The notes under the pieces were generated by a model. That model was not told where the DNA came from. It searched no databases and worked only from the letters and a program-made list of their open reading frames with translations. This document shows, piece after piece, positions 15,302 through 58,559 of a stretch of 64,000 bases of DNA. A program made the position numbers and the translations under genes. Source of the DNA: an uncultured Candidatus Actinomarina sp. (GTDB lineage Bacteria > Actinomycetota > Acidimicrobiia > Actinomarinales > Actinomarinaceae); assembly GCA_902622665.1 (NCBI GenBank), contig CACNQV010000001.1, forward strand, positions 123,719 to 187,718. Direction: 5' to 3'. Numbering within the stretch: position 1 is the stretch's first letter; every line of letters begins with the position of its first letter.

Positions 15302-15356
15302 TGTATTAACACATATTACTAGACAGATAAGACTGAAATATTTAAAATGGGAAAAC

Positions 15357-18134: not shown

Positions 18135-18135
18135 A

Positions 18136-21697: not shown

Positions 21698-21741
21698 AAG
21701 TAAAGAGTAACAAATAAAATAAGGAAGTAGAAGAATAAAAA

Positions 21742-22332: not shown

Positions 22333-22383
22333 GGTAAAAAATAATACTGGCTTTAAAACATTTGTCATGAAGCCAGTACCGGC

Positions 22384-22959
22384 TCAGTATGAATCTACAA
22401 TAAAATAGTCACCACTAGGAATATTCCAGGCTTTAACTGCATCGAACCACCTAAAATGTCCTTCAGCTTCATTGGTATCTCCTGCAAAAACTATTCCCGA
22501 TACGTATTGAAATAACAATGATGAACATTTTCCATTGACATGAGACTTTGATGATTTCATATCAACTGCCCTTATTAATTTTTCAATATATTGAATAGTT
22601 CTTAAGGTAACTTGGCCTCCCGCATTTTTTCTATTCAATCTTATGTAGTCATTAATATTAGGCTTTGGTCTATTTAAACGTTGAGAAATTCTTACTGGAG
22701 CTAAAAACGCGTCTGGATCCTTTAAGTCATCTAATTTTCCATCTATTTCCAAAGAAATTTGCATATCTTCCTTATTAAATCTCATAATTATCCAAATATC
22801 TTTACCAAATTTAGACGTACCGAGATACCTTCGACCATTAAAAGTGTCTTTCTTTAACGCATTTGTAAGAAATTGCTCTTTTTTTCTTTTTTTAAGTTCT
22901 AACTTTTTGTTATCTATTTTTTTATTCAAATAATCCCCTTTCAATGTAAATTTGCACAA
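22384..22959 (-). CDS. hypothetical protein (191 aa)
   Basis: ORF; basic N-terminus; no motif recognised. Confidence 0.4.
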   Translation of the reverse strand: MCKFTLKGDYLNKKIDNKKLELKKRKKEQFLTNALKKDTFNGRRYLGTSKFGKDIWIIMRFNKEDMQISLEIDGKLDDLKDPDAFLAPVRISQRLNRPKPNINDYIRLNRKNAGGQVTLRTIQYIEKLIRAVDMKSSKSHVNGKCSSLLFQYVSGIVFAGDTNEAEGHFRWFDAVKAWNIPSGDYFIVDSY

Positions 22960-23093
22960 AAAAAAGAAGCGAGAGATTTCCCGCTTCTAAATTAAAAAAG
23001 CACACGTTTGTGTGCATTAAATTACATTATATCACAAAATGATTAAAAAATCAATTTTCAGCTGTTTGTGGCTAAGTTAGTATGTAATGATAT

Positions 23094-24839: not shown

Positions 24840-24840
24840 C

Positions 24841-26295
24841 CTAAAGTAAGCTTGCCAGCCAATCATGCAGTAAATACAAGTTTTTACAATCTGCTTTGTT
24901 ATATTCAATAATTAAATCTTTTAATTCGTATTCCTCATTAAAAAAATAATCTTCAAAATACTGAATTGATTCCATTCCAGATTGTAAATCTTCAGTTCTA
25001 TTTATACCTGCTAACTTCTCAACTGTTTTTAAGGAGTAAGAACTTGCTCCAATCAACAATGAAGAGTTGACTATTGTAAATAAGTCTATAAAACACTTTT
25101 TTTCAATAAGTTGTTCTAATTCCTTTTCATACACGCCAAAGTTCTGAGCAGATCTTTTCAGAGAGGAAATTTCGTAACTAAAGTAGTGATAAAACTTTGC
25201 ATCAGGATACAGTTCTAAATGTTCAAGTAATTTTTCTATAAAGCTAACAAAAGAATTTTTTTCTTCTTCTTCGTCATCAGACCAGTAGTAAGTGAAACTA
25301 TCATTTTTGTCATTACTCCAAATGCCATAGAGGTATTCAAAGTTTCTACCAATAGTTAAAAACGGGTACCCCTCAAAATCGATATACAAGTCTCCTTTTT
25401 TAGGTTTTAGTAATCCATTTAAAGATGCATCTTTTATTTCATATGAAATTTTATTTTCGGTTGAGTCATTAAAAAGCTGGGCTAATTTTTTGTACTTAGT
25501 AAATGTAGCCTCGCCCATGCCGTCAATTTTTTCTAAATTAGTATTTTTTAATTCTTCAACAGTTTTGATGTCATTGTTTTTTAATTTCTCAATCTGTTTA
25601 GCTTGAATTCTATATAAAAGTTCGAGGCCATTATCTTTAATCCAAATTTTTTTAGCTTCATCATCGTACTCTTGGAGTTCTTCCCCTTTCTTTGGGTATG
25701 GTGGCGTTTCAGGATCGTATAAATTGTTGAAGTCCATAAACTGATTTTTAAGTTCCGCATAGATTTCCTTGTATTCATCAAATTCAACTTTATGCATTTG
25801 CAAATCTCCAAGAAACAAAAAACATTCCGTTACCTGTTTTTTGGTAACTGTTTCAAGAATTTCTCTGTAAACAAATAGTTGCATAATATGTTCTGTTTTT
25901 ATTGAAGATGAAAGCTTTGCATCAATTATGTGTAAGTTGTCATCTACTATTTTTACAAAATCTAATCTTCCGACAAAATCTATTGAAGAAATATAAGGTT
26001 GAAAAATAACATCAGGATTTTTCTCAAGTTCTTTTAAAAATACTTTGTTTGAAGAGTCTTTATTAGACATATCAACAACATTTAAATTTTCTGAAATTCT
26101 ATATTTGTCTTTTAAAACAACCTCATGCTCTTGTGCTTTTGTTAAAAGCTGTTTAGAAATTAATTTTGAGGCATTAATTTGTATTTTGTATTTAGCATCA
26201 ATTTTTTTTTCATCTACAAGTCTGTTTGTTTTATTACACCAGTAGCTAAAAGGTGAATTGTAGAATCTAATAAATTCTGATACGCTATGAGGCAT
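24841..26295 (-). CDS. RecB-family nuclease (COG2251/TM0106-like)
   Basis: PD-(D/E)XK-like HIIDAKLS...QLFVY segment plus a DnaQ/RNaseH-like YIDFEGYPF segment; shares an operon with sbcDC; overlaps the sbcC stop by 11 nt. Confidence 0.5.
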   Translation of the reverse strand: MPHSVSEFIRFYNSPFSYWCNKTNRLVDEKKIDAKYKIQINASKLISKQLLTKAQEHEVVLKDKYRISENLNVVDMSNKDSSNKVFLKELEKNPDVIFQPYISSIDFVGRLDFVKIVDDNLHIIDAKLSSSIKTEHIMQLFVYREILETVTKKQVTECFLFLGDLQMHKVEFDEYKEIYAELKNQFMDFNNLYDPETPPYPKKGEELQEYDDEAKKIWIKDNGLELLYRIQAKQIEKLKNNDIKTVEELKNTNLEKIDGMGEATFTKYKKLAQLFNDSTENKISYEIKDASLNGLLKPKKGDLYIDFEGYPFLTIGRNFEYLYGIWSNDKNDSFTYYWSDDEEEEKNSFVSFIEKLLEHLELYPDAKFYHYFSYEISSLKRSAQNFGVYEKELEQLIEKKCFIDLFTIVNSSLLIGASSYSLKTVEKLAGINRTEDLQSGMESIQYFEDYFFNEEYELKDLIIEYNKADCKNLYLLHDWLASLL

Positions 26296-29200
26296 TTAAA
26301 TCAATTAAGTTTACATCTTTGGATGATTTGCTTAATGCCTCAGCAAATACCTCGTCGTGTGTAAGAACAACAATTTGTGTTTCTGTTGCTAAGTCTTCTA
26401 AGACTTTAATAAAGCCTGCTTGTGAATTCCTGTCTAAATGATCTGATATATCATCGTAGAATAGTGGAAATCTAAAATCTGAATTTTTAAAAGTTTCAAG
26501 TTGCACTGCCATCCTTACTGCTAAGGCAATTGCGGCTTGTTCTCCATCACTGTGTAAGTGAAGCTCTTTATCTCTTGTATTTTCTTTAGATACTTGATAT
26601 TTCACACTTAAAATATCTTCTTCTTCGTCAAACTCAACACCTGATAAGTTTGGATTAATTTTATTGATGATGGAATTTATTCTCTTTTTTAAATCAAGTG
26701 TTATATTTGCTGTGTTCTTCAATTGCTCATCAACTAAATAAAGCGCTAATACTGTTGAAAGATATTGTTTTCTTGCTTCCTGCCACTCCCTCAAAATCTT
26801 ATACTTTTCAGAAAGTAAATCTTCCTTTTTGTAATCCGGTTCTGTAAATAAAGCACCTTCTAAACTGCTAAGTTCTAGTTTTTTATCTTCTCTTTTTGAT
26901 ATTGTCTCTTCTAGTTCATCGTCTATTTCATCAGAATTGACTAAAAGAGTATCAATAGTAAGTTCACTTGATAATATCTTCTTTGCAAACTGATCTTTTT
27001 CAGATTTCTTAAAAAAGTTAAGCTCATTATCATCGAATAAGGTTTCTAGTTGTTCTAGTACTAAAATCACACTTTCTATTTCATCAAGAGATTCTGCATC
27101 ATATGTGCTTAGGATGTTCTTATTCATTTTTTCAGCGTCTGTTATATATTTCTTGGATCCTTTGATTTCTTCTTCTAGTTGTTTTTTATTCTCAAGTTCT
27201 TCCTCTAACTTGGATATTGAATTGTTAAAATCTTCAATGTGGCTTTGAAGAGAAGTTCTTTCTAGTTCTTCTATTTCTAAATCTTTACTAATAGGTTCTA
27301 GTAGTTTTTTTAGGCTTTTCTTCTTAGAGTTCAGATCTGTAGTGAGACTATTGAGTTCTAGATTTTGCTCTTCTAAATTTAATGTGTCTTGATTTAAATC
27401 AACTAAAAGATCTAATTGCTCTTCTAAATCTTCACTTTCCATAAAAGCTTTCGAAACTTTATATTTTTTTATTAACTCATCAGACGCTTTTTTAATTTCT
27501 GTGATGCCTTCTTTCTTTTTGCTTAATTCTTCTTCTAACTTGCTCTTTGAATCATTTAAGGTGTTTAATTCCTCTTCTAAATCTATTAAGTCATCTAACT
27601 GATCGAAATAATAGGAGAAATCCGAGTCTTTAAGGGTTACTTCACCCAATTTATATTTTTTTGAGATTGTCTCATTTTTCTTTAAAATATTCCTTACATC
27701 AGAGGTATATGTCTTTTCTTTGAGTTTTAAAATTTTGATTTCTTCTTCTATAGACTGAAACTGTAATCTTGTTGTTAAATTTTTAACTAGACTCTCATAA
27801 TCATCATGAATTAAAGACACCTTAGACATTATCAATGTCTCATTTTCCACAATAATATCTAATAGATCTTCTAATTTTTTTATATCTTTATAAGATTTAT
27901 GAACTTTTTTAAATGTCTTTTGATTTTCTTCTAAAATGCTCTGGATAGATTCTGTAATTGAAAATATATCATCTCCTCTATAGTCAATGTGCTGTGTGCC
28001 GGCTTTGTCTTCATTCAATCTTTTTAGCTTCTTCTTTGTCTCATTAGAGTTTTGTTTGATATCAAGAATTTCTTTATTGAGTTTTTTCAACAACGTTTTA
28101 TCTTTTGCGGTTATTTTTTCTTTTTTTAATTGAGCTATAGTCTGAGGAGAAAAGCCACAACTATCTATTGACTCTTTAATTTCTTGTTTCTTGTTTTTTA
28201 TATCGATTTTAAGTTTTGCTATTTCATCTACTAAAGGTTGTGAATCAAATTCATTTATCTTGTTAGAAATTGTAAGTATTTTGTTTTTATCACTTTCTTT
28301 TAACTTAGTTTTTTTATAGAACGCAACACTTGTTTTTGTCAGATTTAACTCTTCTTCTATTTCCGTTAAGGCAGTTTTTAAACTTTCAACTTTATCTATT
28401 TGTAAAAGAACTTTTTCGTTTGCATTTTCATACTCATCAAATGCAGTGAGATAGGTGTCTACTTCCAATTCTTTTAAATTGGTCTTTTTGACTCCACCAA
28501 TCCTTTCATCACACTCTTCCAATTGGATTTTTAAATCTACTAGATTATTTCCCTTCACTTCAACCTCTGAAATAGATTCATTCAAATTTTTATAATCTGA
28601 TTCTATTTTTACGAGCTTATGGGTTTTATAAGAATTGGTCTTAATGTTTTTCTTTTGAAGAGAATTTAGTGAATCTAGTAATTCTCCAATATTTTCAATA
28701 TGTTTTTGTTGAATTTGTATTTCTGTTTTTGTAGATTCCAGTTCACTAATTTTTGTATTCAGGCTTACTATATTTTTCTTTAACTTAGCTATGTCCTCTT
28801 CATCATTTTTAGATAAATTATCTCTATTTTCTTTCTCTGTTTTTTCAAGGTCTTTTAGCCTATCGTTTACATCTTTTAAATTGTTTTGAAGCTCTCCAAT
28901 TTTTGTTAGGTTTTTAGTTCTTGTTGCACTCTCTGTTTTATCTGTCAACTTAGTTGCATACTCAGCATAAGACATAACAGCTTCTTCAACATTTTGAGAC
29001 ATTGAACCTGACGCTACGCTTATTAACTTTATTAAATCATTTCTTATGTTTTTATCTAACGAAATTGAACCTTGTATGTCTGAAATCATCTTTGTTGATG
29101 TAAAAAAGAAGTTTGAAAATAATCTTCGCATCTTCTCAACATCATCTATTTGAGGATATATATTTTTTATCTGTTCATTAATATTTTTGTCCCACTTACT

Positions 29201-29482
29201 TCTTGAAATTGAAAGCTTGTCTCCATTGCTGTCAATATTTAAGATAACTCCTCCAGATCCAATTTCTGTTCGTGACACTGCAGTTGGTCCGTCATAATCA
29301 TATTGAAAATAGTGATCGCTTTTTGTGGGTATTCCAAAAAGCAAATGATAAAGAGACTTCACAATAGATGATTTGCCAGAACCATTATCTCCAAGCAAAA
29401 CATTTATATTAGGTTCGAATGAAATTGGCTTGAAGTCAACTAGGGCACCGTATTTTAGGATTGATAATTCTTCAAACTTCAT
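26285..29482 (-). CDS. sbcC: SbcC/Rad50-like SMC ATPase
   Basis: N-terminal Walker A LLGDNGSGKSS; long coiled coil; C-terminal signature/Walker B region (HSDGEQAAIALA, LFYDDISDHLD). Confidence 0.8.
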   Translation of the reverse strand: MKFEELSILKYGALVDFKPISFEPNINVLLGDNGSGKSSIVKSLYHLLFGIPTKSDHYFQYDYDGPTAVSRTEIGSGGVILNIDSNGDKLSISRSKWDKNINEQIKNIYPQIDDVEKMRRLFSNFFFTSTKMISDIQGSISLDKNIRNDLIKLISVASGSMSQNVEEAVMSYAEYATKLTDKTESATRTKNLTKIGELQNNLKDVNDRLKDLEKTEKENRDNLSKNDEEDIAKLKKNIVSLNTKISELESTKTEIQIQQKHIENIGELLDSLNSLQKKNIKTNSYKTHKLVKIESDYKNLNESISEVEVKGNNLVDLKIQLEECDERIGGVKKTNLKELEVDTYLTAFDEYENANEKVLLQIDKVESLKTALTEIEEELNLTKTSVAFYKKTKLKESDKNKILTISNKINEFDSQPLVDEIAKLKIDIKNKKQEIKESIDSCGFSPQTIAQLKKEKITAKDKTLLKKLNKEILDIKQNSNETKKKLKRLNEDKAGTQHIDYRGDDIFSITESIQSILEENQKTFKKVHKSYKDIKKLEDLLDIIVENETLIMSKVSLIHDDYESLVKNLTTRLQFQSIEEEIKILKLKEKTYTSDVRNILKKNETISKKYKLGEVTLKDSDFSYYFDQLDDLIDLEEELNTLNDSKSKLEEELSKKKEGITEIKKASDELIKKYKVSKAFMESEDLEEQLDLLVDLNQDTLNLEEQNLELNSLTTDLNSKKKSLKKLLEPISKDLEIEELERTSLQSHIEDFNNSISKLEEELENKKQLEEEIKGSKKYITDAEKMNKNILSTYDAESLDEIESVILVLEQLETLFDDNELNFFKKSEKDQFAKKILSSELTIDTLLVNSDEIDDELEETISKREDKKLELSSLEGALFTEPDYKKEDLLSEKYKILREWQEARKQYLSTVLALYLVDEQLKNTANITLDLKKRINSIINKINPNLSGVEFDEEEDILSVKYQVSKENTRDKELHLHSDGEQAAIALAVRMAVQLETFKNSDFRFPLFYDDISDHLDRNSQAGFIKVLEDLATETQIVVLTHDEVFAEALSKSSKDVNLIDLNAS

Positions 29483-30822
29483 TAATCATCCTTGTAACTT
29501 AAGCCATTTATTATTCTTGAAGCTATTTTTTTAGCATTGTTAATAATCTCTGAAGACTCTTGCTCATCAATTTCGTCTGAAATAACTTTTTGTTCTGTGA
29601 GGGGAATCGATTTTGGCAAAATACCAAACTTTTTATTTAAATTTTTTTTAAATTCTTTTTTGGTTAAATGTTCAAAAACAGTCTCATTAATAAAGCTTTC
29701 TAAATCGTCTATATCTAGACCTTCTAGTTCTGTAACTATAGATTCAATTGCTTCTAGTGAGTCTTCTTTAGTGGAGGGTTTTAGTTTATTAATACATTTT
29801 ATGATATTTAAATCTTCATATTCTAACTCCTCATTAAGACTTGTTAAGAGCTCTTCTTCTAAAATAAGGTTGTAATAGTCAGATTTTCCTTCTAATTCGA
29901 CTGTTATCATCAAAAACTTACCTGGGTTTTCATTCTGAATTGATTCAATTTTTTTGACAGTATTATTAACAATCTCACTTATGTCTTGATCTTTTTTGAC
30001 TTCTGTTACTGCTGTAAAAAACCTGGCATCATCTAATGGCTTAAATGTTAACTCTGGTTCAAAATTTTTTACTTCAACTAAATAACACCCTTTTCCATCT
30101 GAAATATCATTACAAGTTTCAGACGGTTTAGTGCTTAGCCCCTGTGGATTTCCAGGGTAGACAGCTAAATATGGATCTTGAATGAGAATTTCTCTTTTGT
30201 GGATATGTCCAAATGCCCAGTAATTATATTCACATTTATCCAACATAGCTTTATTTGTCGGAGCATAGTTATGTGTTTCATCAAACTTATATGTATTTTC
30301 ATAACTTGTATGAATTAAACCAATGTTGTAGAAATCTCTGAATGGTTTTGGAAACTTTTCTACAAGTTTTTCTGTTACTACTTTTTTTGGGTAGCTTTGA
30401 CCGTGGATAGCTACTTTAAAATTATCAATAGTAAAAGTATCTGCATTTTTAGCTGGAAATACATAGGTGTTTTCAGGTAATTTTTTTGCTTCAAAAGATG
30501 TTAATAAATCAGAATCAACATCATGGTTTCCTAAAACAATATATATGTCAATATTTAATTGGTCTAACTTTTTTAAAAAGTTTTTAAATTTTTTAAAATA
30601 ATTGTCACTAGAGGGCATATCGTCATCAAATGTATCCCCAGCGAGAAGAATGAAATCTGGTTGCTCTTCTTCAGCTAAAGCAACTAGGTTGTCGAGAACC
30701 TTAATAGGAGAACGTCTTACTCGAATTTCTTGGTCAGGATCCAAAAAGCTATATTTTTTTGTTATTTCTCGCCCTATGTGTAGGTCAGAAATGTGAATAA
30801 ATTTAAATTCTTTACCCGCCAT
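29482..30822 (-). CDS. sbcD: SbcD/Mre11-like metallophosphoesterase nuclease
   Basis: Calcineurin-like phosphoesterase motifs (HISDLHIG, LLAGDTFDD, LGNHD, GHIH); 1-nt overlap with sbcC. Confidence 0.85.
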   Translation of the reverse strand: MAGKEFKFIHISDLHIGREITKKYSFLDPDQEIRVRRSPIKVLDNLVALAEEEQPDFILLAGDTFDDDMPSSDNYFKKFKNFLKKLDQLNIDIYIVLGNHDVDSDLLTSFEAKKLPENTYVFPAKNADTFTIDNFKVAIHGQSYPKKVVTEKLVEKFPKPFRDFYNIGLIHTSYENTYKFDETHNYAPTNKAMLDKCEYNYWAFGHIHKREILIQDPYLAVYPGNPQGLSTKPSETCNDISDGKGCYLVEVKNFEPELTFKPLDDARFFTAVTEVKKDQDISEIVNNTVKKIESIQNENPGKFLMITVELEGKSDYYNLILEEELLTSLNEELEYEDLNIIKCINKLKPSTKEDSLEAIESIVTELEGLDIDDLESFINETVFEHLTKKEFKKNLNKKFGILPKSIPLTEQKVISDEIDEQESSEIINNAKKIASRIINGLSYKDD

Positions 30823-30889: not shown

Positions 30890-31342
30890 ATGGTTAAGGT
30901 AGAAACAAGAATTCAACTAGCAATTAAAGAAATTCTTGTAGAAGAAACCTGGAAACATCTGAAATCAAATAATAATTTCGACAAGGTATTATCTATTGCC
31001 TCATTGATTGAACCTTTTGATGAGGGACCTGATGCATGTTATGAAGACTGTAAAGGTATGTGTTTTGGTTGTTACGATGGCTATAAATACTCTCTTGATT
31101 GGAGAGCAAGTTATAACCTTCGAGACAAAAAACCTTTTAGTTTAATAACAGATCACGAACTAGATATGTTGATTGAAGCAATAGATGACAAAGTACACAC
31201 ATGTGATGAGTGGTGTTCAGATTTTATCTGTTACAAATATAAAGCTACAAATTGTAAGACTTGGTACTGTGAGAACTTATTTCTTAAAGAAAAAAAGAAT
31301 ATTAAATACTGTTCTAGCTGTAGAGGGCTTGCTCATATCTAA
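30890..31342 (+). CDS. Cys-rich hypothetical protein (150 aa, ~14 Cys)
   Basis: CYEDCKGMCFGCYDGYKY...CDEWCSDFICYKYKATNCKTWYC...CSSCRG; probable metal-binding or disulfide-rich domain. Confidence 0.4.
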   Translation: MVKVETRIQLAIKEILVEETWKHLKSNNNFDKVLSIASLIEPFDEGPDACYEDCKGMCFGCYDGYKYSLDWRASYNLRDKKPFSLITDHELDMLIEAIDDKVHTCDEWCSDFICYKYKATNCKTWYCENLFLKEKKNIKYCSSCRGLAHI

Positions 31343-31417: not shown

Positions 31418-31939
31418 TCAATAATCCTTATCTCTTGGAGTAAGGGGTGCTCCGTATTGTCTATAAGGTGCTGCGTCTTCAATTCTTTTTTCACGAGCAA
31501 TTCTCTCTTTATTAGTTTCTTTTAGATTCGTATCCTTATAATTCTTGATTTTCTCAAACTCTAAATTAAAAAATTCTAATTTTTTACTAAGTTCATCTTT
31601 ATCAATTCTTAAGTCAACTTGTTCTCCCTGAATCTCGTCTAAAGTAAGCTCGATAAATTTTTTTAGTTTTCTAAGTAAGCGAAGAAATTTTCTATCTGTA
31701 GATGTTGTTTTAAGTTGCTCAATTTCAACTAACCTGTTTAAGAACTCATTTACAATTTTTTTTAAACTGGCTTCTTGAATAATTTCCATATCTGTCATGT
31801 TTTTTCCATGCTTGATAAGATTTTCATGTCTCTCAAAATTCTCTACAGATTGTTTTTCTCGAATTAATCTCTCTTTATCAGTTTCACGGATACCAGTTTC
31901 TAACCAGTTCTTCATTTTCTCTTTTTTATTTTCATCCAT
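31418..31939 (-). CDS. hypothetical charged coiled-coil protein (173 aa)
   Basis: K/E-rich heptad-like sequence; no motif recognised. Confidence 0.4.
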   Translation of the reverse strand: MDENKKEKMKNWLETGIRETDKERLIREKQSVENFERHENLIKHGKNMTDMEIIQEASLKKIVNEFLNRLVEIEQLKTTSTDRKFLRLLRKLKKFIELTLDEIQGEQVDLRIDKDELSKKLEFFNLEFEKIKNYKDTNLKETNKERIAREKRIEDAAPYRQYGAPLTPRDKDY

Positions 31940-31964: not shown

Positions 31965-32276
31965 ATGGTCATGAAAAGTAAAACAAAAAAGTTAAAAATA
32001 GAATTTAAAAATATTGAGACAGATCTTTTAAAAATTAACAAAAGTATCTCTGATCTGTACCAAAAAATAGACCATCTTGATGAAGATGAGCTTAGAGATG
32101 AAATAAAGAACCTATTTGAATCCTCTGAAATTAATATTGTTAACGAACATGAAGGCTTTGATAATTGTTTTGTAACAACTGTCGGTACTGAAAATAAAGT
32201 TAATAGGCCTGCTTTTGTTGATAAATACGGCAACTGTCTTGTACAGGGCTATAGAGAAATTACAAAAAAAGGGTAA
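31965..32276 (+). CDS. hypothetical protein (103 aa) upstream of the Hsp70-like gene
   Basis: Ends 5 nt before the Hsp70-like start; probably co-transcribed. Confidence 0.35.
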   Translation: MVMKSKTKKLKIEFKNIETDLLKINKSISDLYQKIDHLDEDELRDEIKNLFESSEINIVNEHEGFDNCFVTTVGTENKVNRPAFVDKYGNCLVQGYREITKKG

Positions 32277-32281
32277 ATTCA

Positions 32282-34531
32282 ATGGGAAAACAGGCTTTAG
32301 GGTTTGATTTTGGAACCTCCAACTGTACGGTGTCGATTTTTGATTCTGATAAAGGGATAGTTGAAACACTACCTATATCGAATTATTCAGAGTCAAAAAA
32401 AAGAAGCCTGGCAAATCAATCTTTATTCCCCTCAAAAGTCGGTCTCAATGATGATTTTGAATATGTATTTGGTGATGATACAAAAAATTGTGAGAGAGAC
32501 TTTGTGTGGGACAACTCTAAAAGACTGTTAGAACATAACACCCCAATTTATAGAGGAGGAGTTCACAAAAAACCTGTCTGGGTTGCAATAGGCATAATGG
32601 GTGGAGTATATAAAGAACTAAAAAATCTATCTATCAAAACATCTTCACCCATGGTAATTACAGTTCCAGCTAACTCTTACAGTACACAGAGAAGTCTCAC
32701 GAGATTGGCTGCAGAGTCATATAATTTTAATGTAGATCAATTAGTATCTGAGCCATGCGCTGCAGCATTAGGTTGCTATAAGAACATAGTAAATTTAAAA
32801 AATATTTTAATAGTTGATGTAGGCGGTGGCACAACAGATATAGCATTAATAGAAAATGATTTTGGTACGTTAAAAGAGATAGCAATTGAGGGCTTGAAGA
32901 GATTTGGCGGTATAAATATTGATCAAAAATTATATGAGGCGTATAAAGAAGAGTTTGAATTATCTACTGATTCAGAGAAATTACTTTTTAGAGATTTGCT
33001 TGAAGATGTAAAAATAGAGCTGTCATCCAAAAAGAAATCCAAATTAATTTTTAAAGACAACGTAATAGACATCACAAGAGAAAACCTTGAAAAATTAATT
33101 AAAAAAGATATTGAAAGTTTAGATAAAACTATTGATAAGGTTTTGAAAAAAGGTAAGGTCGAGTTAAAAAACGTAGAAGCTGTTTTACCTATTGGAGGCT
33201 CATCTAATATTCCTGCAGTAAGAGAGCTTTTGAAAAAAAAGTTTAAATCAAAATTAATAAATCTTGATTTTGATGAGGCAATTACTGCAGTTGCTAAAGG
33301 TGCAGCAATAGCTTCCGCTATAAACACAGGAATTATTAAAGATCTTAACTTTCAACAGTGTCTGGAGCATAGTGTTGGTCTCAGGGTCTGGAGTGGCACT
33401 AAAGAAAATAAAATTTTTAAAACAATGTTAAAAAAAGGTTCTATATTTCCAGCGTCTGCAGTAGAAACTTTTATATCAGATACAGATGAATCTATAGTTG
33501 CTTTATATGAAAGTACTTCAGGCAAGTTAAAAAACAACGATACAAAATTAATTATTGAAAAAAGAATTAAAACTGGCGTTATGCATGTTGATGTTGAGCT
33601 CACTTATGATGATGATGGAAAAATAGATATAAAAACATACAACATTAATAAAAATGAGCGAGGAAAGTTAGGAGATTTAGGAGATAGTAGTAAAGACTCT
33701 GAAGGATACATCAAAAATTTACAAGATAAATCTCGTGAACAAGGAATGGACTTAAAGATAGATAGTATCAAATATATTGATTCACAATTAAATCAAAAAA
33801 AATTAAAAGAATGGTCAAACGAATTCCTGGGGAAATATAAAAAATATAAAAAAGTATCTGAGAAGGTAAAAAATATATTTAAAAAAGAAGCAAAGGATGA
33901 ATTTATTTCTATTAATAATGAGGAGCTCTCCAATGTAGTTGTTGAAGATAGTCCTGATATGGAGTTTGGAAGTACAAACGATGCATTTATGTATGCTGAA
34001 GGTGTTTTAAAACGCACCTTAAGACTTGTTTTTACGTATGCAGGGTATGAAAAAATACATCATTTTAGAGGTATTCATGACTTGTTAAGTGAGCGTGATG
34101 TAATCTACAAAACAAGAGAAAGGTTATTTCCAGAGCAGCCATTAGACGACAAAAGATGGTTAATTAAAGTACTTCTGAAGTCAAGATATCTAAAAAATCT
34201 AGGACATACAAATACTGATGAGGTTAAGGGCCACCTTAACTCTTTAAGAACGATTCTTAATAAATTTAGCCATGGAGTCAGATCTAGTTTTTTTTCAGAT
34301 GTATTTAATGACTCTTTAGATGAATATGACTCACTAATTGAAAGCAATATATTAGAAGAGGTATACAAAGAATCAAAATATACAGCACAAGATGTTGGTT
34401 TCCTTTCTTCAAATATAGTTTCGTTAATCTCTTCTTTAATTAACACAAAAGTATACACAGGACAAGAGAGAGACGATCTAATACAAATGCTAGAAAGTAT
34501 GCATACTTTAGTACAAACATATAAAGAGTAA
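32282..34531 (+). CDS. divergent Hsp70/actin-fold ATPase with long C-terminal extension (749 aa)
   Basis: Phosphate-1 motif LGFDFGTSNCTVS (cf. DnaK IDLGTTNS), phosphate-2 VVDVGGGTTDIALIE (cf. DLGGGTFD), adenosine motif LPIGGSSNIPAVRE. The last ~330 aa are unrelated to the DnaK substrate-binding domain. Confidence 0.7.
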   Translation: MGKQALGFDFGTSNCTVSIFDSDKGIVETLPISNYSESKKRSLANQSLFPSKVGLNDDFEYVFGDDTKNCERDFVWDNSKRLLEHNTPIYRGGVHKKPVWVAIGIMGGVYKELKNLSIKTSSPMVITVPANSYSTQRSLTRLAAESYNFNVDQLVSEPCAAALGCYKNIVNLKNILIVDVGGGTTDIALIENDFGTLKEIAIEGLKRFGGINIDQKLYEAYKEEFELSTDSEKLLFRDLLEDVKIELSSKKKSKLIFKDNVIDITRENLEKLIKKDIESLDKTIDKVLKKGKVELKNVEAVLPIGGSSNIPAVRELLKKKFKSKLINLDFDEAITAVAKGAAIASAINTGIIKDLNFQQCLEHSVGLRVWSGTKENKIFKTMLKKGSIFPASAVETFISDTDESIVALYESTSGKLKNNDTKLIIEKRIKTGVMHVDVELTYDDDGKIDIKTYNINKNERGKLGDLGDSSKDSEGYIKNLQDKSREQGMDLKIDSIKYIDSQLNQKKLKEWSNEFLGKYKKYKKVSEKVKNIFKKEAKDEFISINNEELSNVVVEDSPDMEFGSTNDAFMYAEGVLKRTLRLVFTYAGYEKIHHFRGIHDLLSERDVIYKTRERLFPEQPLDDKRWLIKVLLKSRYLKNLGHTNTDEVKGHLNSLRTILNKFSHGVRSSFFSDVFNDSLDEYDSLIESNILEEVYKESKYTAQDVGFLSSNIVSLISSLINTKVYTGQERDDLIQMLESMHTLVQTYKE

Positions 34532-34535
34532 AAAA

Positions 34536-35321
34536 ATGATTTTCAAAAAGAGAAAGATTGAAAACCTTAAATTATCTCAAAAGGAAGAAATAAATAATTT
34601 AAAAAATGAGCACATCAAATTTAAAAAAAAGCTACTTGATGATTTTGATAAAGAATCAAAAGAATTAGATATAAGATTAAAAGCAGGTATCAAAGATAAA
34701 AAAACATTACAGAAAAAAGAAATAGATCAAATTATAAAATTGCATAACGAAACTGTTAAAGAACTATCTAGTAAAAACGCAGAGGAATTGGAAAAAAAGA
34801 AATCTATATATAGAAAGAAATTAGAAGATTGGAAAGTTAAAGCTGATAAACATTTGCAAAATGAAATCGATAAATACAAAAAAAACTTAGAAAAAAAGCA
34901 AAAGAAGAAAGAAGAGCTTGAAAAACTAGAGATAGAAAAGAAAATGAAGAAAGAAATCTCTTCATTTCTAGAAAAGTTTGAGAAACAAAAACAGAGTGAA
35001 GTAAAAAAACTAGAAAAAAAGTACCAAGATACCGAACTCCTCACAAAGCAATTACAAAAATATTTCTCCGACTTTTTGGGAAAAGAATATAGTGATGTTT
35101 CTTTTAAAGAACTTGAAAAAATATTAAAAAACGAACTAGAAGAACTTGTTAATGAGATTGATGAGGTTAAAAAAGAGATAGAAAATAAGAATGAGTTAGT
35201 TAAAGAATTTAATGAATTTGCTAAAGAAATGGATTATTTACATGAAGAAATAGTAGATAAAAAGAATGAACTTTATGAACTAAAACAAGCAATTAGGAAA
35301 TTAAAGAAAGATGATTATTGA
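34536..35321 (+). CDS. K/E-rich coiled-coil protein (261 aa)
   Basis: Almost entirely KEELEK-type heptads; starts 5 nt after the Hsp70-like stop. Confidence 0.5.
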   Translation: MIFKKRKIENLKLSQKEEINNLKNEHIKFKKKLLDDFDKESKELDIRLKAGIKDKKTLQKKEIDQIIKLHNETVKELSSKNAEELEKKKSIYRKKLEDWKVKADKHLQNEIDKYKKNLEKKQKKKEELEKLEIEKKMKKEISSFLEKFEKQKQSEVKKLEKKYQDTELLTKQLQKYFSDFLGKEYSDVSFKELEKILKNELEELVNEIDEVKKEIENKNELVKEFNEFAKEMDYLHEEIVDKKNELYELKQAIRKLKKDDY

Positions 35322-35401
35322 ATCAACTCTGTTTTTGCTTTTTAAAATAATTCACAATTTCCTTATATCTATAATTTAAGATATAGGAAAAATTAATGAA
35401 A

Positions 35402-37472: not shown

Positions 37473-39899
37473 TTATTTTGAAGGTGCAAAACCAAGAAGT
37501 CTATTTGAAAACTTGTATTCACCAACCCAAAAATGATACCCATCCCAGCCAATACCAGATGCCATCTTTGTTCCCATATTAGATTTATCAGTTCTTCCGC
37601 CAAAGCTCATTGTTGGAGTGTTTCCAGCTAAAGCATCTGTAACTGAATTCCAACCAATGATATTGTTACTATCAGGAATAAAAAACCCTTTATCGTTGAA
37701 GCTAACTTCTGAAGGACAGTCATATCCAGGTACCATTTGATACGATGGTGAGCTCAGAGAGGAAAGCTCTAAAACATTAAAACTAGATCCACCCGGATAA
37801 CATCCAATTGCTAAATGAGTATCGTTCATGTCTATTCTTCCAAGATTCGTAAGATTTGGAAGAGAGTAAGCAGGATTATCAGATACCCCTGGTACGCCTT
37901 CCCATATGTAAATTGTGTCTGCACCAGCGTCTGCTACTGCAAAATATGTACCATTATATGCAAGCCCCCTAACACTTTGGAATGTTACATTACCGATAGT
38001 TTTTGCATTCAATGTAAAACTGTAGTTCCCGCTATTCATCGTTGATTCTATATCGCTCCATCCAAACACACTATTGCCACCAGCCAAATACACTTCTTTG
38101 TCCTCAACAACCATATCCCATGGAGCTTGGTCGAACCTCCTCATAACAATATCTGGTTTTGCGCCTGAGTTTCCAGGAAGTTGTTTCCAGATAGAAAGAG
38201 ATCTGTCAAAATCTGATGATACAAAAAGCATGGTTCCATTTGAATCAATGATTGGATTTTGAATAATAAATTCATCTAAAAGTGGATAATCAGTTGGCTC
38301 ATTTGCTAGTAACGCCCAATCTGGCTTTTCAGCAGGTGAAGTAGGTATAGTATCAAAAACAGAGATCCTATTTCCGTTGTATTCCGCAACAAATAATTTT
38401 CCATCAACAACTGTTGCTCCTCCATCGTCTCCACCAGCCCATCTATGTCCCTCATTAGGATTAGCTAGTTTTACATTTGCTTTTAAATCCTGCGTAGTTG
38501 TATAAAGGTTATCATAAAAATACATAGTCTCTCCACCTGCAGCTATTCCATAAATTTTTGAATCATATATTGCACTTGCTAACCAATTATCGATACAAGC
38601 ATCTGGATCTCTTGAAGAGGTGGGCCATGAAGTCCAAATATGAGTAGATCTTGTACCGTTTTGGCCGATACATGGTCCGTTTGCATTTTCATCACCAAGC
38701 ATTACATAGTTACCATCTGAAGTAATAGATCGTGGAGTTCCTACCTGGCTGGAGGTCAGAACTACATTTGGAGCATCACTAGGTCCCGGAAATGAATCCC
38801 AAAACAAAACTGCTTTTGCAACTGTCGCTGTAACAATAACTTTTGTGCCATCTGACCAAACTCCCCAAGGCCAAGAGTCACCAAAATTAACATAGTTTGT
38901 AGTTTGTATAGCATAATCTGCTGCCTGACCTGAAACTGTTGGGAAAGAAGTCCAAACTAAAACTCTGTTATTGTCTGAATCAGCAACCAAAACTTTTCCA
39001 TCTGGTGTTATCACTACCTGTCCTGGAAAGTTCATATTATTTAAACCTGTTCCAGAGTTATGTGTTGTAAAGTTTGCCTGACCTAACACTATATCTGGTG
39101 CAGTATTGGAAGTTGGAATTGAATTCCATATTAAAACTCTATTATTAAATCTATCTGTAACCGCCATCTTGCCAGCATTTGCGGATATAGAAACTGGGTG
39201 GTTTAATTTTGTCGATCCACCAGAGTTATTAAAGCCATATCCGGAAAGCAAAATATCTCCGGACTCATTTAAACCAAATCCTGTATTTCCATTAGATGTT
39301 GCTACTGAGTAACTCTGAGAGTATTCGTAGACATTCAAATCGTACCATGAGTTACCTTGGTTTCCCTCAGGACCACTTGGTTGATTTGTACTGTCTGATT
39401 TAGAATCTGAAGCTAGAGTAGTTGGTGTTGTACTATTGCCTCCATAACCTCCCCCACTTGGTGGAGGTGGTTGTGCTGTATCAGAAGAAGATGTTGGATC
39501 ATCAAAACAACCAATAATAACACCGGCTTCAAAATTGTCTGGGTTTAAATCATTTACAATTTTTTGATAAATATCTGTTGGAAAAGCTCTAGAAATACAA
39601 TCTAATACTTCGTCATCTGCATCATTAATTATCTGTTTAGCTCTATCTATATCATTTCCGTCTTTTGGAGGTGGAAGGGGTTTATTACCTTCTGGTGGAG
39701 GTGGAGGGTTGTTTCCTTCTGGTGGAGGTGGAGGGTTGTTTCCTTCTGGTGGAGGTGGATTATTGGGATCGGCTGGTTTATTAATTGGTGTATCTTCTGA
39801 GATTGGATCAATATTTACCTGATTTTCCGAATTTTCTGGGCTAGAACATGCCTGAAGTATCAAAAAGAGTATAAGTCCCGTATTTATTGACTTTTTCAT
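37473..39899 (-). CDS. secreted NHL-repeat (beta-propeller) protein with Pro-rich N-terminal repeats
   Basis: Signal peptide; (NNPPPPPEG)x3 repeats; repeated NNRVLIW/NNRVLVW/GNRISVFD NHL-like blades; 808 aa. Confidence 0.65.
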   Translation of the reverse strand: MKKSINTGLILFLILQACSSPENSENQVNIDPISEDTPINKPADPNNPPPPEGNNPPPPPEGNNPPPPPEGNKPLPPPKDGNDIDRAKQIINDADDEVLDCISRAFPTDIYQKIVNDLNPDNFEAGVIIGCFDDPTSSSDTAQPPPPSGGGYGGNSTTPTTLASDSKSDSTNQPSGPEGNQGNSWYDLNVYEYSQSYSVATSNGNTGFGLNESGDILLSGYGFNNSGGSTKLNHPVSISANAGKMAVTDRFNNRVLIWNSIPTSNTAPDIVLGQANFTTHNSGTGLNNMNFPGQVVITPDGKVLVADSDNNRVLVWTSFPTVSGQAADYAIQTTNYVNFGDSWPWGVWSDGTKVIVTATVAKAVLFWDSFPGPSDAPNVVLTSSQVGTPRSITSDGNYVMLGDENANGPCIGQNGTRSTHIWTSWPTSSRDPDACIDNWLASAIYDSKIYGIAAGGETMYFYDNLYTTTQDLKANVKLANPNEGHRWAGGDDGGATVVDGKLFVAEYNGNRISVFDTIPTSPAEKPDWALLANEPTDYPLLDEFIIQNPIIDSNGTMLFVSSDFDRSLSIWKQLPGNSGAKPDIVMRRFDQAPWDMVVEDKEVYLAGGNSVFGWSDIESTMNSGNYSFTLNAKTIGNVTFQSVRGLAYNGTYFAVADAGADTIYIWEGVPGVSDNPAYSLPNLTNLGRIDMNDTHLAIGCYPGGSSFNVLELSSLSSPSYQMVPGYDCPSEVSFNDKGFFIPDSNNIIGWNSVTDALAGNTPTMSFGGRTDKSNMGTKMASGIGWDGYHFWVGEYKFSNRLLGFAPSK

Positions 39900-40072
39900 A
39901 ATTTGATTATATTGAATTTTTTGTAATTTTTAAAAAAATAACTTGGGAATATTAGAATAGGTAGTAAGACTTCCTTTCGTGCTTTGAGCCACTTTTAGAG
40001 ACGATAAAACAAAAATTTACAGCCACAGGGAGTCTTTTTGCCGTTTTTAATAAAAATTGGCCCTAAAAAGTG

Positions 40073-40110
40073 AAAATCCCGATTGATCTTGCGACCCTTC
40101 GGGATTTTCG
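40073..40110 (-). terminator. hairpin AAAATCCCG-N19-CGGGATTTT followed by a T-tract on the minus strand (copy 1 of a duplicated element)
   Basis: 9-bp perfect inverted repeat. On the minus strand it is followed by CACTTTTTAG. Identical core repeated at 40287-40322. Confidence 0.45.
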
Positions 40111-40286
40111 TACTATTTTCAATTAGGTCTTGCGACTTAATTTCTGATAGTTATTTAAAAATAGTAGGTTTTTTGTAATTTGACAAGATTTTTTTCTTAG
40201 TTTTTTTCGCGAACTTTTATACCTAAATTTAATAAATTACAAGTTAAATGGGTTTAATCTTTACAAAAAACTTGGGCAAGAAGCAA

Positions 40287-40322
40287 AAATCCCGATTGAT
40301 CTTGCGACCCTTCGGGATTTTC
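40287..40322 (-). terminator. hairpin copy 2 (identical 37-nt core)
   Basis: Same inverted repeat; minus-strand T-tract TTTTTGC follows. Lies downstream of the minus-strand ORF ending at 40441. Confidence 0.45.
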
Positions 40323-40440
40323 TGTTCTATCTTATTTTCAATCTTGCGATTTATTTTCCGATAGTGTTCTATAAATATACGTTAGTTTTTATTCTTCTGC
40401 AAGAAATTTACTAATGTATTTTTCGCGAGGTTTTTGTATA

Positions 40441-58550: not shown

Positions 58551-58559
58551 AATAGCAGA

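What the first reader, a model, noticed from the sequence alone, without database searches (positions are those of the whole stretch)
31965..35321. Operon of a divergent Hsp70-fold ATPase (749 aa) with non-chaperone C-terminus plus coiled-coil proteins
The ATPase has clear Hsp70/actin phosphate-1/phosphate-2/adenosine motifs but is far from DnaK. DFGTSNCTV replaces DLGTTNS and there is no EEVD or substrate-binding-domain signature. It carries a ~330-aa unrelated C-terminal domain containing an R-x6-H segment (RYLKNLGH).

It is tightly flanked by a 103-aa protein upstream and an almost pure K/E coiled-coil protein downstream. A 14-Cys small protein and another coiled-coil protein lie nearby.

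Divergent Hsp70-like ATPases outside the chaperone operon, located in a defense island, may be sensors or effectors rather than foldases.
Basis: partly seen in the sequence, partly recalled or inferred. Interest (0 to 1): 0.6.

Follow-up and report, generated by a model that had tools for sequence, protein, structure and literature searches.

The report
Accessory Hsp70-like cassette in Actinomarina
A tiny marine bacterium carries, inside a cluster of anti-virus genes, a swappable cassette that encodes an unusual Hsp70-type ATP-driven protein clamp with a new tail domain and a new small partner protein; it may be an uncharacterised defence module, but its function has not been shown.

Summary
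The three ORFs are real, tightly packed and under purifying selection (103 aa, 749 aa, 261 aa).

The 749-aa protein is a true Hsp70-family ATPase with every catalytic motif invariant. A divergent Hsp70 substrate-binding β-domain (aa ~356-465) and lid-like helices are present. Only the last ~190 aa form a new helical domain. That domain has no detectable relative outside this family in Pfam, PDB, BFVD or 1.84 billion representative proteins.

The proposed R-x6-H motif (RYLKNLGH) is not conserved, so a HEPN fold is not supported.

The conserved core is two genes, found in 13 loci of five divergent clades. It consists of a ~100-aa partner (two helices plus a small β-domain) directly upstream of the Hsp70-like gene, often overlapping it. 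This is the position that grpE occupies next to the nearest outgroup paralogs, but no GrpE homology is detectable. K/E-rich coiled-coil genes recur beside the pair but are not conserved in sequence.

The host is Candidatus Actinomarina. The module sits in a flexible island with restriction-modification genes, NERD helicases or DarTG. It is far more diverged than its flank (85% vs 98% DNA identity). In one relative it is bracketed by a duplicated lysA 3' end.

Best reading: a mobile accessory Hsp70-clamp module, probably conflict-related (confidence ~0.4). No effector is identified.

The parts
31965..32276 (+). Small partner protein (103 aa): long helix (aa 2-37), short helix (40-53), then a 5-6-strand β-domain (57-100). 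Invariant R81, A83, D86, G95.
   Evidence: ORF. It lies directly upstream of the Hsp70-like gene in all 13 related loci and overlaps it in some. The family has 53 clusters, all about 93-113 aa. AF2 pLDDT is 84.8. No Pfam, PDB or GrpE similarity. dN/dS is 0.06-0.11.
32282..33346 (+). [quoted passage not shown]
   Evidence: Pfam HSP70 E=2.5e-36 and MreB_Mbl E=2.9e-17. DnaK and Hsc70 structures match at E~1e-23. Invariant columns are listed, and the alignment to DnaK is.
33347..33676 (+). Divergent Hsp70 substrate-binding β-domain (aa ~356-465). It starts with the invariant F-x-Q-C-L-E-H-S-V and ends with Y-D-D-D-G-K.
   Evidence: The Pfam HSP70 alignment extends to profile position 589 of 599. 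The 5obu DnaK alignment runs to aa 463. The domain-only profile hits DnaK substrate-binding domains 1dg4 and 1q5l first, at E 0.14-0.22. One clade carries a ~55-aa insertion just after the first conserved segment of this domain.
33677..33961 (+). Lid-like helices (aa 473-486 and 505-534) and a low-confidence K/E-rich linker (aa ~535-564).
   Evidence: AF2 secondary structure and pLDDT. Pfam HSP70 still aligns to aa 552. Y476 is invariant.
33962..34531 (+). Family-specific C-terminal all-helical domain (aa ~561-749). Conserved D623-x-R625 (P-L-x-D-x-R-W) and N660-x3-H664. It evolves fastest, at 15-25% identity between clades.
   Evidence: pLDDT is above 90 for most of the domain. No Pfam match, no PDB-sequence match, and no Foldseek match in PDB or BFVD with E below 0.1. 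The 1.84-billion-protein search finds only this family and its fragments.
34536..35321 (+). K/E-rich (42%) coiled-coil protein, 261 aa. Third gene of the operon in the closer clades only.
   Evidence: ORF and composition. It is 48% identical to the L013 homolog. Only its C-terminal ~110 aa are conserved in the 48%-identity clade (E=3e-9). It is not found in the 42% and 33% clades. dN/dS is 0.14-0.18.
31418..31939 (-). Divergently transcribed 173-aa K/E/R-rich helical protein. A constant neighbour only within the closest clade.
   Evidence: Present as 173-175 aa in L001, L003 and L013. The upstream gene in L012 is not homologous. No family match.
35358..35390 (.). AT-rich hairpin between the convergent coiled-coil gene and lysA. 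Likely a bidirectional terminator that closes the operon.
   Evidence: RNA fold -10.4 kcal/mol, z=-4.06 against shuffles. The consensus terminator scan did not call it because it has too few G-C pairs.

Best explanation
This is a horizontally exchanged accessory cassette of Candidatus Actinomarina flexible (defence) islands. It encodes a self-contained, non-canonical Hsp70 machine.

COMPONENTS
- The core is two translationally coupled genes.
- The 749-aa protein is a catalytically intact Hsp70-type ATPase. It keeps the peptide-clamp β-domain and lid-like helices, and it ends in a fast-evolving new helical domain.
- The ~100-aa partner (two helices plus a small β-domain) sits where grpE sits next to the nearest outgroup paralogs. 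I infer that it acts as the clamp's dedicated cofactor or adaptor.
- K/E-rich coiled-coil proteins are frequent accessory scaffolds, but they are interchangeable.

PROPOSED MECHANISM (inferred)
- ATP-controlled opening and closing of the β-domain clamp captures an extended segment of a specific target. I consider a phage or other invader protein most likely.
- This nucleotide-state change is passed to the C-terminal helical domain, the partner and the coiled-coil scaffold as the output, for example through assembly, sequestration or a block on a host or phage process.

SHOWN VERSUS INFERRED
- Shown: domain architecture, motif conservation, gene linkage, accessory and mobile status, defence-island context.
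- Inferred: the target, the role of the small protein, and any anti-phage activity.
For: HSP70 IDENTITY AND INTACT ATPASE
- Family membership.
- Invariant catalytic motifs across 21 members at 33-100% identity.
- Substrate-binding β-domain retained.

DEDICATED PARTNER
- The small gene is directly upstream in every one of 13 loci from five clades, with overlapping or near-overlapping stop and start codons.
- The partner family occurs only as ~100-aa proteins, with one probable chimera as the exception.
- The nearest outgroup Hsp70 paralogs (27-29% identity) have grpE in exactly that position.
- No J-domain (HPD) protein lies in the locus.
- The DnaK J-docking residues R167/N170/T173 are replaced by Q/N, S and C. 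This rests on the pattern [QN]L[VI]SEPCAA, the alignment and my own knowledge of DnaK.

ACCESSORY AND MOBILE
- The host is Ca. Actinomarina: GyrB is 95-97% identical to named MAG proteins.
- GyrB has more than 120 clusters at >=95% identity, against about 12 for this protein.
- Window versus L001: the flank is 97.9% identical but the module only 85.3%.
- A 33%-identity version occupies the same lysA-adjacent site in L009. There it is bracketed by a 109-nt, 95% direct repeat of the lysA 3' end.
- Other clades sit at other sites.

DEFENCE CONTEXT
- Window: Dam methyltransferase, BglII endonuclease, SNF2/PLD helicase, NERD helicase.
- The adjacent site holds different restriction-modification cassettes in L001 and L013.
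- L009 has DarT and Macro.
- L011 has a NERD helicase, Schlafen AlbA_2 and a UvrD-like helicase.

PRECEDENT
- Hsp70 NBD/SBD units occur in predicted conflict systems: CoCoNuT CnuD (PMC11090510) and the GTPase/tubulin/Hsp70 and GAP1-N2/Hsp70-GrpE systems (PMC7159879).

FUNCTIONAL GENES
- All genes are under purifying selection.
Against: - No recognisable effector (nuclease, TIR, pore-former and so on) is present in the core pair or its partners.
- PADLOC gives only a weak partial hit to candidate PDC-M61B (E=1.8e-5, 180 aa of the ATPase core).
- The 42%-identity clade lies among ordinary metabolic genes with no clear defence neighbour.
- There is no sign of positive selection; dN/dS is about 0.1.
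- Flexible islands of streamlined marine bacteria also carry non-defence cargo (PMC7771536).
- The cofactor role of the small protein rests on gene position and gross topology only. Profile comparison with GrpE is negative.
- There are no experimental data of any kind.
Confidence: 0.4

Rival explanations
1. A specialised, non-defence Hsp70 chaperone, in the manner of HscA or HscC. It would fold, assemble or hold a particular lineage-specific or island-encoded client, with the small protein as its private co-chaperone.
For: - The ATPase is intact and the peptide-binding β-domain is retained.
- Selection is purifying.
- No effector domain is present.
- The 42%-identity clade lies among metabolic genes.
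- The best NCBIfam hits are HscA and DnaK.
- The nearest outgroup paralogs sit in grpE-hsp70 operons.
Against: - Scores are far below the HscA and DnaK cut-offs: 111 against 620 bits.
- The gene is accessory and rare compared with core genes of the same lineage.
- It occupies different genomic sites in different clades, shows cassette-type flank duplication and a sharp drop in identity relative to its flank.
- It repeatedly neighbours restriction-modification, DarTG and NERD genes.
- An extremely streamlined 1.1-Mb genome (PMC7771536) is unlikely to keep a dispensable housekeeping paralog.
Confidence: 0.25
2. One reading: the C-terminal domain is a HEPN/Abi-type RNase effector driven by the Hsp70 ATPase.
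For: - The domain is all-helical.
- An N-x3-H motif with a preceding basic residue (LRTILNKFSHG) and a D-x-R motif are conserved.
- HEPN domains accompany Hsp70-like units in CoCoNuT systems.
Against: - RYLKNLGH is not conserved.
- The R of L-R-x3-N-x3-H lies 8 residues before the H (seven residues between them; canonical HEPN is R-x4-6-H). It is replaced by H or K in several members.
- No HEPN or Abi hit appears in Pfam even at E<=10, in PDB sequences or in Foldseek against PDB, which holds many HEPN structures.
Confidence: 0.07
3. An actin-like (ParM/Alp-type) filament system with a small adaptor, serving segregation or maintenance of a mobile element.
For: - Weak ParM_N, FtsA, MreB and Alp7A matches.
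- A PHROG 'partition protein' hit at E=4.5e-13.
- The gene pair consists of a small partner plus an ATPase and has cassette-like mobility.
- One JGI annotation calls a partner homolog 'H-NS'.
Against: - HSP70 scores far better than any actin-like family (E-36 against E-17 or worse).
- Hsp70-specific substrate-binding β-domain and KR/NEPxAAAL-type motifs are present.
- No family member was found on plasmids or phages.
- No replicon or integrase genes are in the cassette.
Confidence: 0.05
4. A degenerate or partial copy of an already described Hsp70-containing conflict system: CoCoNuT type III (CnuD), or the DO-GTPase/tubulin/Hsp70 or GAP1-N2/Hsp70-GrpE systems.
For: The layout of NBD/SBD plus a helical C-terminal extension and coiled-coil partners resembles CnuD with CoCoNuT coiled-coil proteins. 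Hsp70-GrpE themes occur in actinobacterial GTPase systems.
Against: - No McrB-like GTPase, DUF2357/McrC, tubulin or TRAFAC GTPase lies next to the module in the window or in any of 13 loci.
- The ATPase motifs are invariant here but degenerate in CnuD.
- The C-terminal domain has no relatives outside the family.
Confidence: 0.03

Closest known systems
DnaK/Hsp70 chaperones (PF00012; DnaK, HscA, HscC)
   Same: - Actin-fold nucleotide-binding domain with all catalytic motifs.
- A peptide-binding β-sandwich domain follows in the same order, then helical lid-like segments.
   Different: - Only 22-29% identical to DnaK-type proteins and far below the equivalog cut-offs.
- The interdomain linker VLLLD is replaced by an invariant (N/H/S/E)-F-x-Q-C-L-E-H.
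- The J-docking residues are changed.
- No EEVD.
- A new ~190-aa C-terminal helical domain.
- No grpE or dnaJ neighbours; a novel ~100-aa partner instead.
- Accessory and mobile rather than core.
CnuD / CnuCD Hsp70-like proteins of type III CoCoNuT systems (Bell et al. 2024, PMC11090510)
   Same: - An Hsp70 NBD/SBD unit followed by a helical C-terminal region.
- Encoded beside coiled-coil proteins in defence islands.
- Predicted non-foldase role.
   Different: - CoCoNuTs are defined by a McrB-type NxD GTPase and a McrC/DUF2357 partner, plus HEPN nucleases. None of these is present here.
- CnuD ATPase motifs are degenerate, whereas here they are invariant.
- The helical region here is not detectably HEAT-like.
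GTPase-centric conflict systems with Hsp70 (DO-GTPase+tubulin+Hsp70; GAP1-N2+Hsp70+GrpE) of Kaur et al. 2020 (PMC7159879)
   Same: An Hsp70 paralog recruited to a predicted NTP-dependent conflict system, partly in Actinobacteria, with a nucleotide-exchange factor gene adjacent.
   Different: - No GTPase, tubulin, FNIII/DnaJ or TPR partner here.
- The adjacent small gene is not a detectable GrpE.
grpE-hsp70-TPR operons of the nearest outgroup paralogs (P0075 and P0076, loci L113 and L116)
   Same: These are the closest sequence relatives outside the family (27-29% identity). A small gene directly precedes the Hsp70 gene.
   Different: - There the upstream gene is a Pfam-recognisable GrpE.
- TPR, Zn-ribbon and BON proteins flank the pair.
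- The Hsp70 proteins are 563-607 aa and lack the C-terminal domain.
- The host genomes have 42-49% GC.

Membership tests
Hsp70 superfamily (PF00012) | Actin-fold ATPase domain with phosphate-1, phosphate-2 and adenosine motifs and the catalytic K and E residues | tested here: met
   Pfam HSP70 E=2.5e-36. PDB DnaK and Hsc70 match at E~1e-23. D9, K80, E157, D179, G181-D186 and G305-G306 are invariant in 21 members.
Hsp70 superfamily (PF00012) | Substrate-binding β-domain C-terminal to the ATPase | tested here: met
   The Pfam alignment reaches profile position 589 of 599. DnaK 5obu aligns to aa 463. The domain-only profile gives DnaK substrate-binding domains 1dg4 and 1q5l as top hits, but only at E 0.14-0.22. 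The domain is divergent but collinear.
Canonical DnaK / HscA chaperone (NCBIfam equivalogs) | Score above the curated equivalog cut-off | tested here: not met
   HscA scores 108.7-111 bits against cut-offs of 620-708. DnaK scores 107.7 bits against 822.
Canonical DnaK / HscA chaperone (NCBIfam equivalogs) | Operon or functional linkage with grpE and a J-domain protein | tested here: not met
   No GrpE or DnaJ Pfam hit appears in the neighbours of the window or of 13 related loci. No HPD motif occurs in any locus protein. The small partner against GrpE profiles gives probability 0.1%.
HEPN RNase superfamily (for the C-terminal domain) | Conserved R-x4-6-H motif in a four-helix-bundle core | tested here: not met
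   RYLKNLGH is not conserved. The conserved H664 has N at -4. The R at -8 is replaced by H or K in several members. No HEPN hit in Pfam at E<=10, in PDB sequences or in Foldseek against PDB.
CoCoNuT type III (CnuD) | Adjacent McrB-like NxD GTPase (CnuB) and McrC/DUF2357 protein (CnuC) | tested here: not met
   No such domains in the genes flanking the module in the window or in the related loci.
CoCoNuT type III (CnuD) | Hsp70 NBD/SBD followed by HEAT-like helical repeats | tested here: inconclusive
   The NBD/SBD plus helical C-terminal domain is present. No HEAT or other repeat match was found. No CnuD sequences were available for direct comparison.
GTPase/tubulin/Hsp70 and GAP1-N2/Hsp70-GrpE conflict systems | Linked TRAFAC GTPase(s), with or without tubulin | tested here: not met
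   No GTPase or tubulin domains in the neighbours.
PADLOC candidate PDC-M61 (component B) | Full-length match to the PDC-M61B model, with its partner genes | tested here: not met
   Only aa 145-324 match model positions 320-519 of 588, at E=1.8e-5. No partner hits.
ParM/Alp actin-like segregation ATPases | Best match to actin-like families, no Hsp70 substrate-binding domain, plasmid or phage location | tested here: not met
   ParM_N E=0.004 and Alp7A_like_C E=0.012, both below cut-off. The substrate-binding β-domain is present. The family is absent from the plasmid and phage collections searched.
GrpE nucleotide-exchange factors (for the 103-aa protein) | Sequence or profile similarity to PF01025; long helix plus C-terminal β-domain | tested here: not met
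   No PF01025 hit in 27 members at E<=10. hhalign probability is 0.09-0.14%. Foldseek against PDB returns no GrpE. Only the gross topology and the gene position resemble GrpE.

The most novel reading that the evidence does not exclude
The cassette is a self-contained Hsp70-based immune module of a kind not yet described. The peptide clamp of an Hsp70 paralog directly senses a phage protein. Its ATP cycle is tuned by a private non-GrpE cofactor and switches a new helical output domain, with no GTPase, nuclease or STAND partner. It operates in one of the smallest free-living bacteria, which was reported to lack toxin-antitoxin and CRISPR systems.
Probability: 0.3. Interest if true: 0.75.

Novelty: new variant of a known kind. 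Interest (0 to 1): 0.5.

Why it matters
- Hsp70 is the archetypal foldase. Its recruitment as a sensor or switch in prokaryotic conflict systems has so far only been predicted, and always alongside GTPases or McrBC-type partners.
- A minimal two-gene Hsp70 module with its own cofactor and a new output domain would be the simplest test bed for that idea.
- It would add a defence-like function to Candidatus Actinomarina. This is an abundant, extremely streamlined ocean bacterium whose flexible islands are thought to hold little beyond restriction-modification and surface-modification genes.
- The work also defines two protein domains with no detectable relatives: the ~100-aa partner and the ~190-aa C-terminal domain.
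- If it turns out to be a private chaperone instead, it is still an unusual luxury for a 1.1-Mb genome.

Tried and rejected
- HEPN/Abi effector in the C-terminus: no conserved R-x4-6-H, and no Pfam, PDB or Foldseek support.
- GrpE homology of the small protein: rejected at sequence, profile and Foldseek level. Only position and topology are GrpE-like.
- Phage or plasmid origin: no family member in IMG/VR contigs (only generic giant-virus Hsp70, <=30% identity over most of the match), INPHARED phages, PLSDB plasmids or PHROGs.
- Relatives of the C-terminal domain elsewhere: the exhaustive HMMER search of 1.84 billion representatives returned only this family, its fragments and one possible standalone 164-aa copy.
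It says nothing about the family's distribution.
- Flanking att-like repeats, tRNAs or integrases around the window copy: none found.
- The promoter and terminator consensus scans were uninformative in this AT-rich DNA.
- The assembly accessions of the related loci L001 and L002 (GCA_902619825, GCA_902579135) were not found in the supplements of the Actinomarinales paper. Taxonomy was settled through GyrB instead.
- The precomputed PF23717 hit on P0058 was not reproduced.

Full report
OBSERVATION

The three ORFs exist exactly as reported: 31965-32276 (103 aa), 32282-34531 (749 aa) and 34536-35321 (261 aa). All are on the + strand and are separated by 5 and 4 nt. A 173-aa K/E/R-rich gene is transcribed divergently only 25 nt upstream. 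A Cys-rich 150-aa ORF lies beyond it, with 11 Cys rather than 14. An AT-rich hairpin (35358-35390, -10.4 kcal/mol, z=-4.1) separates the operon from the convergent lysA gene.

The genes are real:
- The large protein has about 74 full-length or near-full-length homologous clusters.
- The small protein has 53 clusters.
- Pairwise dN/dS among close relatives is 0.06-0.12 for the two core genes and 0.14-0.18 for the coiled-coil gene.

WHAT THE LARGE PROTEIN IS

It is a true Hsp70-family protein. Pfam HSP70 matches at E=2.5e-36, against MreB_Mbl at E=2.9e-17 and much weaker actin-like hits. DnaK, Hsc70 and BiP structures match at E~1e-23. It is not a DnaK, HscA or HscC orthologue, since it scores 108-111 bits against cut-offs of 620-822.

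- D9-F-G-T-x-N
- K80 in N-S-K-R-L-L
- E157 in S-E-P-C-A-A-A-L
- D179-x-G-G-G-T-T-D
- I-G-G-(S/T)

That does not hold.
- The Pfam alignment continues to aa 552, which is profile position 589 of 599.
- Mycoplasma DnaK 5obu aligns through aa 463.
- A profile of aa 348-475 alone picks the two isolated E. coli DnaK substrate-binding-domain structures (1dg4, 1q5l) as its best PDB hits. The alignment is collinear over 84 positions, though the E-values are weak (0.14-0.22).

The architecture is therefore:
- NBD, aa 1-355.
- An invariant junction F-x-Q-C-L-E-H-S-V in place of the DnaK VLLLD-V-T-P-L-S linker.
- SBDβ, aa ~356-465.
- Two lid-like helices and a low-confidence K/E linker, aa ~466-560.
- A family-specific all-helical domain, aa ~561-749, with AF2 pLDDT above 90 over most of it.

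Conservation decays along the chain. Against the 42-34% clades, identity is 44-54% in the NBD, 40-45% in SBDβ, 22-33% in the middle region and 15-25% in the C-terminal domain. One clade carries a ~55-residue insertion just after the first conserved segment of the β-domain.

The residues equivalent to the DnaK J-domain docking site (R167, N170, T173; from my own knowledge of DnaK) are Q/N, S and C throughout the family. This follows from the pattern [QN]L[VI]SEPCAA and the alignment. No locus protein has an HPD motif. This suggests the protein works without a J-protein.

THE C-TERMINAL DOMAIN

Its only conserved residues are D623-x-R625 (P-L-x-D-x-R-W), N660 and H664 (L-N-x3-H-G).

Nothing matches the domain:
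- Pfam on 14 members at E<=10.
- A profile search of PDB sequences.
- Foldseek against PDB and BFVD, where the best E-value is about 0.2.

An exhaustive HMMER search of 1.84 billion representative proteins returned only three clusters of this same family and fragments. It also returned one 164-aa protein (P0130) that keeps the D-x-R-F and N-x3-H motifs. That protein is encoded next to a K/E-rich coiled-coil ORF on a short, low-coverage contig.

THE PARTNER GENES

In all 13 related loci a 98-113-aa gene lies directly upstream of the Hsp70-like gene and overlaps it in several. The loci represent five clades, at 85-87%, 48%, 42%, 34% and 33% identity to the window protein. In L009 the 5' part of the small gene is disrupted, while L010 encodes the identical Hsp70-like protein with an intact small gene.

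The small proteins are homologous, with invariant R81, A83, D86 and G95. AF2 predicts a long helix, a short helix and a small β-domain at pLDDT 85.

That topology, and the gene's position, recall GrpE. The nearest outgroup Hsp70 paralogs (P0075 and P0076, 27-29% identity) do have a Pfam-recognisable grpE immediately upstream, inside TPR-GrpE-Hsp70-TPR operons. No homology is detectable, however:
- No PF01025 hit at E<=10.
- hhalign probability 0.1% against E. coli GrpE and against an alignment that includes the outgroup GrpEs.
- No GrpE among the Foldseek hits.

The cofactor role of the small protein is therefore inferred.

The downstream K/E coiled-coil protein is conserved in close relatives (48% identity where the Hsp70 protein is 85%). 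In the 48% clade only its C-terminal ~110 residues are conserved (E=3e-9). It is absent from the other clades. Unrelated K/E-rich coiled-coil genes do recur beside the pair: a 476-aa gene in L009, 180- and 193-aa genes in L012, and a 179-aa gene in L117. The 173-aa divergent gene is specific to the closest clade.

GENOMIC SETTING

GyrB at the end of the window is 95-97% identical to proteins labelled Candidatus Actinomarina sp.. The window's GC content (33%) fits that order (PMC7771536).

Window positions ~14.3-26.3 kb encode a Dam-type methyltransferase, a GHKL ATPase, an SNF2/PLD helicase, a BglII endonuclease, a NERD-UvrD helicase and a PD-(D/E)xK/RNase-H-like protein. An SbcD-like/SMC-like pair follows.

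Between that pair and the module, relatives carry different cargo:
- The Cys-rich ORF in the window.
- A Bsp6I restriction-modification system in L001 and L002.
- An MmeI-like methyltransferase plus an SNF2/PLD enzyme in L013.
- Nothing in L003.

Several observations mark the module as accessory and exchangeable:
- Against L001, the left flank is 97.9% identical in DNA, the module only 85.3% and the coiled-coil gene 78.6%.
- In L009, a version of the module only 33% identical occupies the same lysA-adjacent site, with DarT and Macro nearby.
- That L009 cassette comprises the 476-aa coiled-coil gene, the small gene and the Hsp70-like gene. It is bracketed by a 109-nt, 95% direct repeat of the lysA 3' end.
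- This is the same signature the Actinomarinales literature describes for cassette insertion at tRNA genes (PMC7771536).
- L011 shows a 178-nt repeat (78%) of a NERD-helicase 3' end around the module plus RNase J, with Schlafen-AlbA2 and UvrD-like neighbours.
- The 42% clade sits among metabolic genes.
- GyrB of this lineage has more than 120 clusters at >=95% identity, many of them seen on tens of contigs. The Hsp70-like protein has about a dozen.
- No family member was found in viral contigs, phage genomes, plasmids or PHROGs.

INTERPRETATION

Shown:
- A catalytically intact Hsp70 paralog that retains the peptide clamp.
- A private, translationally coupled small partner.
- A fast-evolving new C-terminal domain.
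- Accessory, cassette-like, island-associated genomics.

Inferred:
- The ATP-driven clamp recognises a specific target.
- The small protein tunes the cycle.
- The C-terminal domain, with or without coiled-coil scaffolds, provides the output.
- The biological role is conflict or defence.

Precedents exist only as predictions: CnuD in type III CoCoNuTs (PMC11090510), and Hsp70 in the DO-GTPase/tubulin and GAP1-N2/GrpE systems (PMC7159879). Their defining GTPase or McrC partners are absent here, so this module is not a member of those systems. The main rival is a private, non-defence chaperone. The absence of any recognisable effector and the metabolic context of one clade keep that rival alive.

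VERDICT

This is a new variant of a known kind: an Hsp70 paralog recruited to a mobile, island-borne module. Interest is moderate at 0.5. I put the defence-type mechanism at about 0.4. The structural and genomic description is far better supported, by multiple independent lines of evidence.

Noticed in passing
L009:5701-5809 and L009:10349-10457: A 109-nt direct repeat (95% identical) of the lysA 3' end. It brackets a ~4.5-kb cassette made of a 476-aa coiled-coil gene, a 5'-disrupted small gene and the Hsp70-like gene. This is the footprint of cassette insertion at the lysA 3' end.
   Followed up: partly
L011:2581-2757 and L011:6822-6996: A 178-nt direct repeat (78%) derived from the 3' end of a NERD-helicase gene. 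It flanks the small gene, the Hsp70-like gene and RNase J. The 78-aa ORF called on the - strand there is probably a gene remnant.
   Followed up: partly
window 14282-26295: A run of defence-type genes: a D12 Dam-like methyltransferase, a GHKL (HATPase_c_3) ATPase with a 247-aa unknown protein and a 1121-aa SNF2/PLD helicase, a BglII endonuclease, a NERD-UvrD helicase and a PD-(D/E)xK/RNase_H_2 protein. The GHKL/SNF2-PLD trio was not classified.
   Followed up: partly
window 26285-30822 (- strand): An SbcD-like phosphoesterase (446 aa) plus a 1065-aa SMC/Rad50-like ATPase. They give weak hits to Lamassu LmuB (E=2.8e-13) and to an 'anti-phage phosphoesterase' model. The pair is 98% conserved with L001, so it may be core SbcCD-like repair rather than defence.
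   Followed up: no
window 30890-31342; L001:5280-6938; L013:1073-8128: The site between the SbcD-like gene and the 173-aa gene is a swap site. It holds a Cys-rich 150-aa orphan in the window, a Bsp6I restriction-modification system in L001 and L002, and an MmeI-like methyltransferase with an SNF2/PLD enzyme in L013. L003 has nothing there.
   Followed up: partly
L113:520-7780 and L116:867-7499: The nearest outgroup Hsp70 paralogs lie in conserved operons of a large TPR protein, a ~150-aa protein, GrpE, the Hsp70-like protein, and then a TPR or BON/LysM protein. The host genomes have 42-49% GC. This may be another dedicated Hsp70 system.
   Followed up: no
L117:107-1314: A possible standalone copy (164 aa, P0130) of the C-terminal helical domain, preceded by a K/E-rich coiled-coil ORF. 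The contig is 1.4 kb at 0.7x coverage, so this may be an assembly artefact.
   Followed up: partly
alignment A1 columns ~374-430 (P0071-P0074); in L009 about 9100-9270: A ~55-residue insertion, containing two Cys, just after the first conserved segment of the substrate-binding β-domain in one clade. If it lies in a substrate-contacting loop, target specificity may be altered there.
   Followed up: no
window 40052-40434: Two tandem copies of a ~170-nt unit (75% identical) in the region between the 808-aa gene and the 174-aa gene.
   Followed up: no
window 58420-58556 (- strand): An AdoCbl (B12) riboswitch, Rfam RF01482, 56.6 bits. It lies between gyrA and a block of - strand genes.
   Followed up: no
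window 37473-39899 (- strand): An 808-aa predicted lipoprotein or secreted protein with PPPPEGNN proline-rich repeats near the N-terminus and a long β-propeller-like body. It was not analysed.
   Followed up: no
P0060 (433 aa, on a 230-kb NCBI contig): A truncated copy, 95% identical and covering 58% of the protein, in an otherwise long contig. It may be a pseudogene or a frameshifted allele of the Hsp70-like gene.
   Followed up: no
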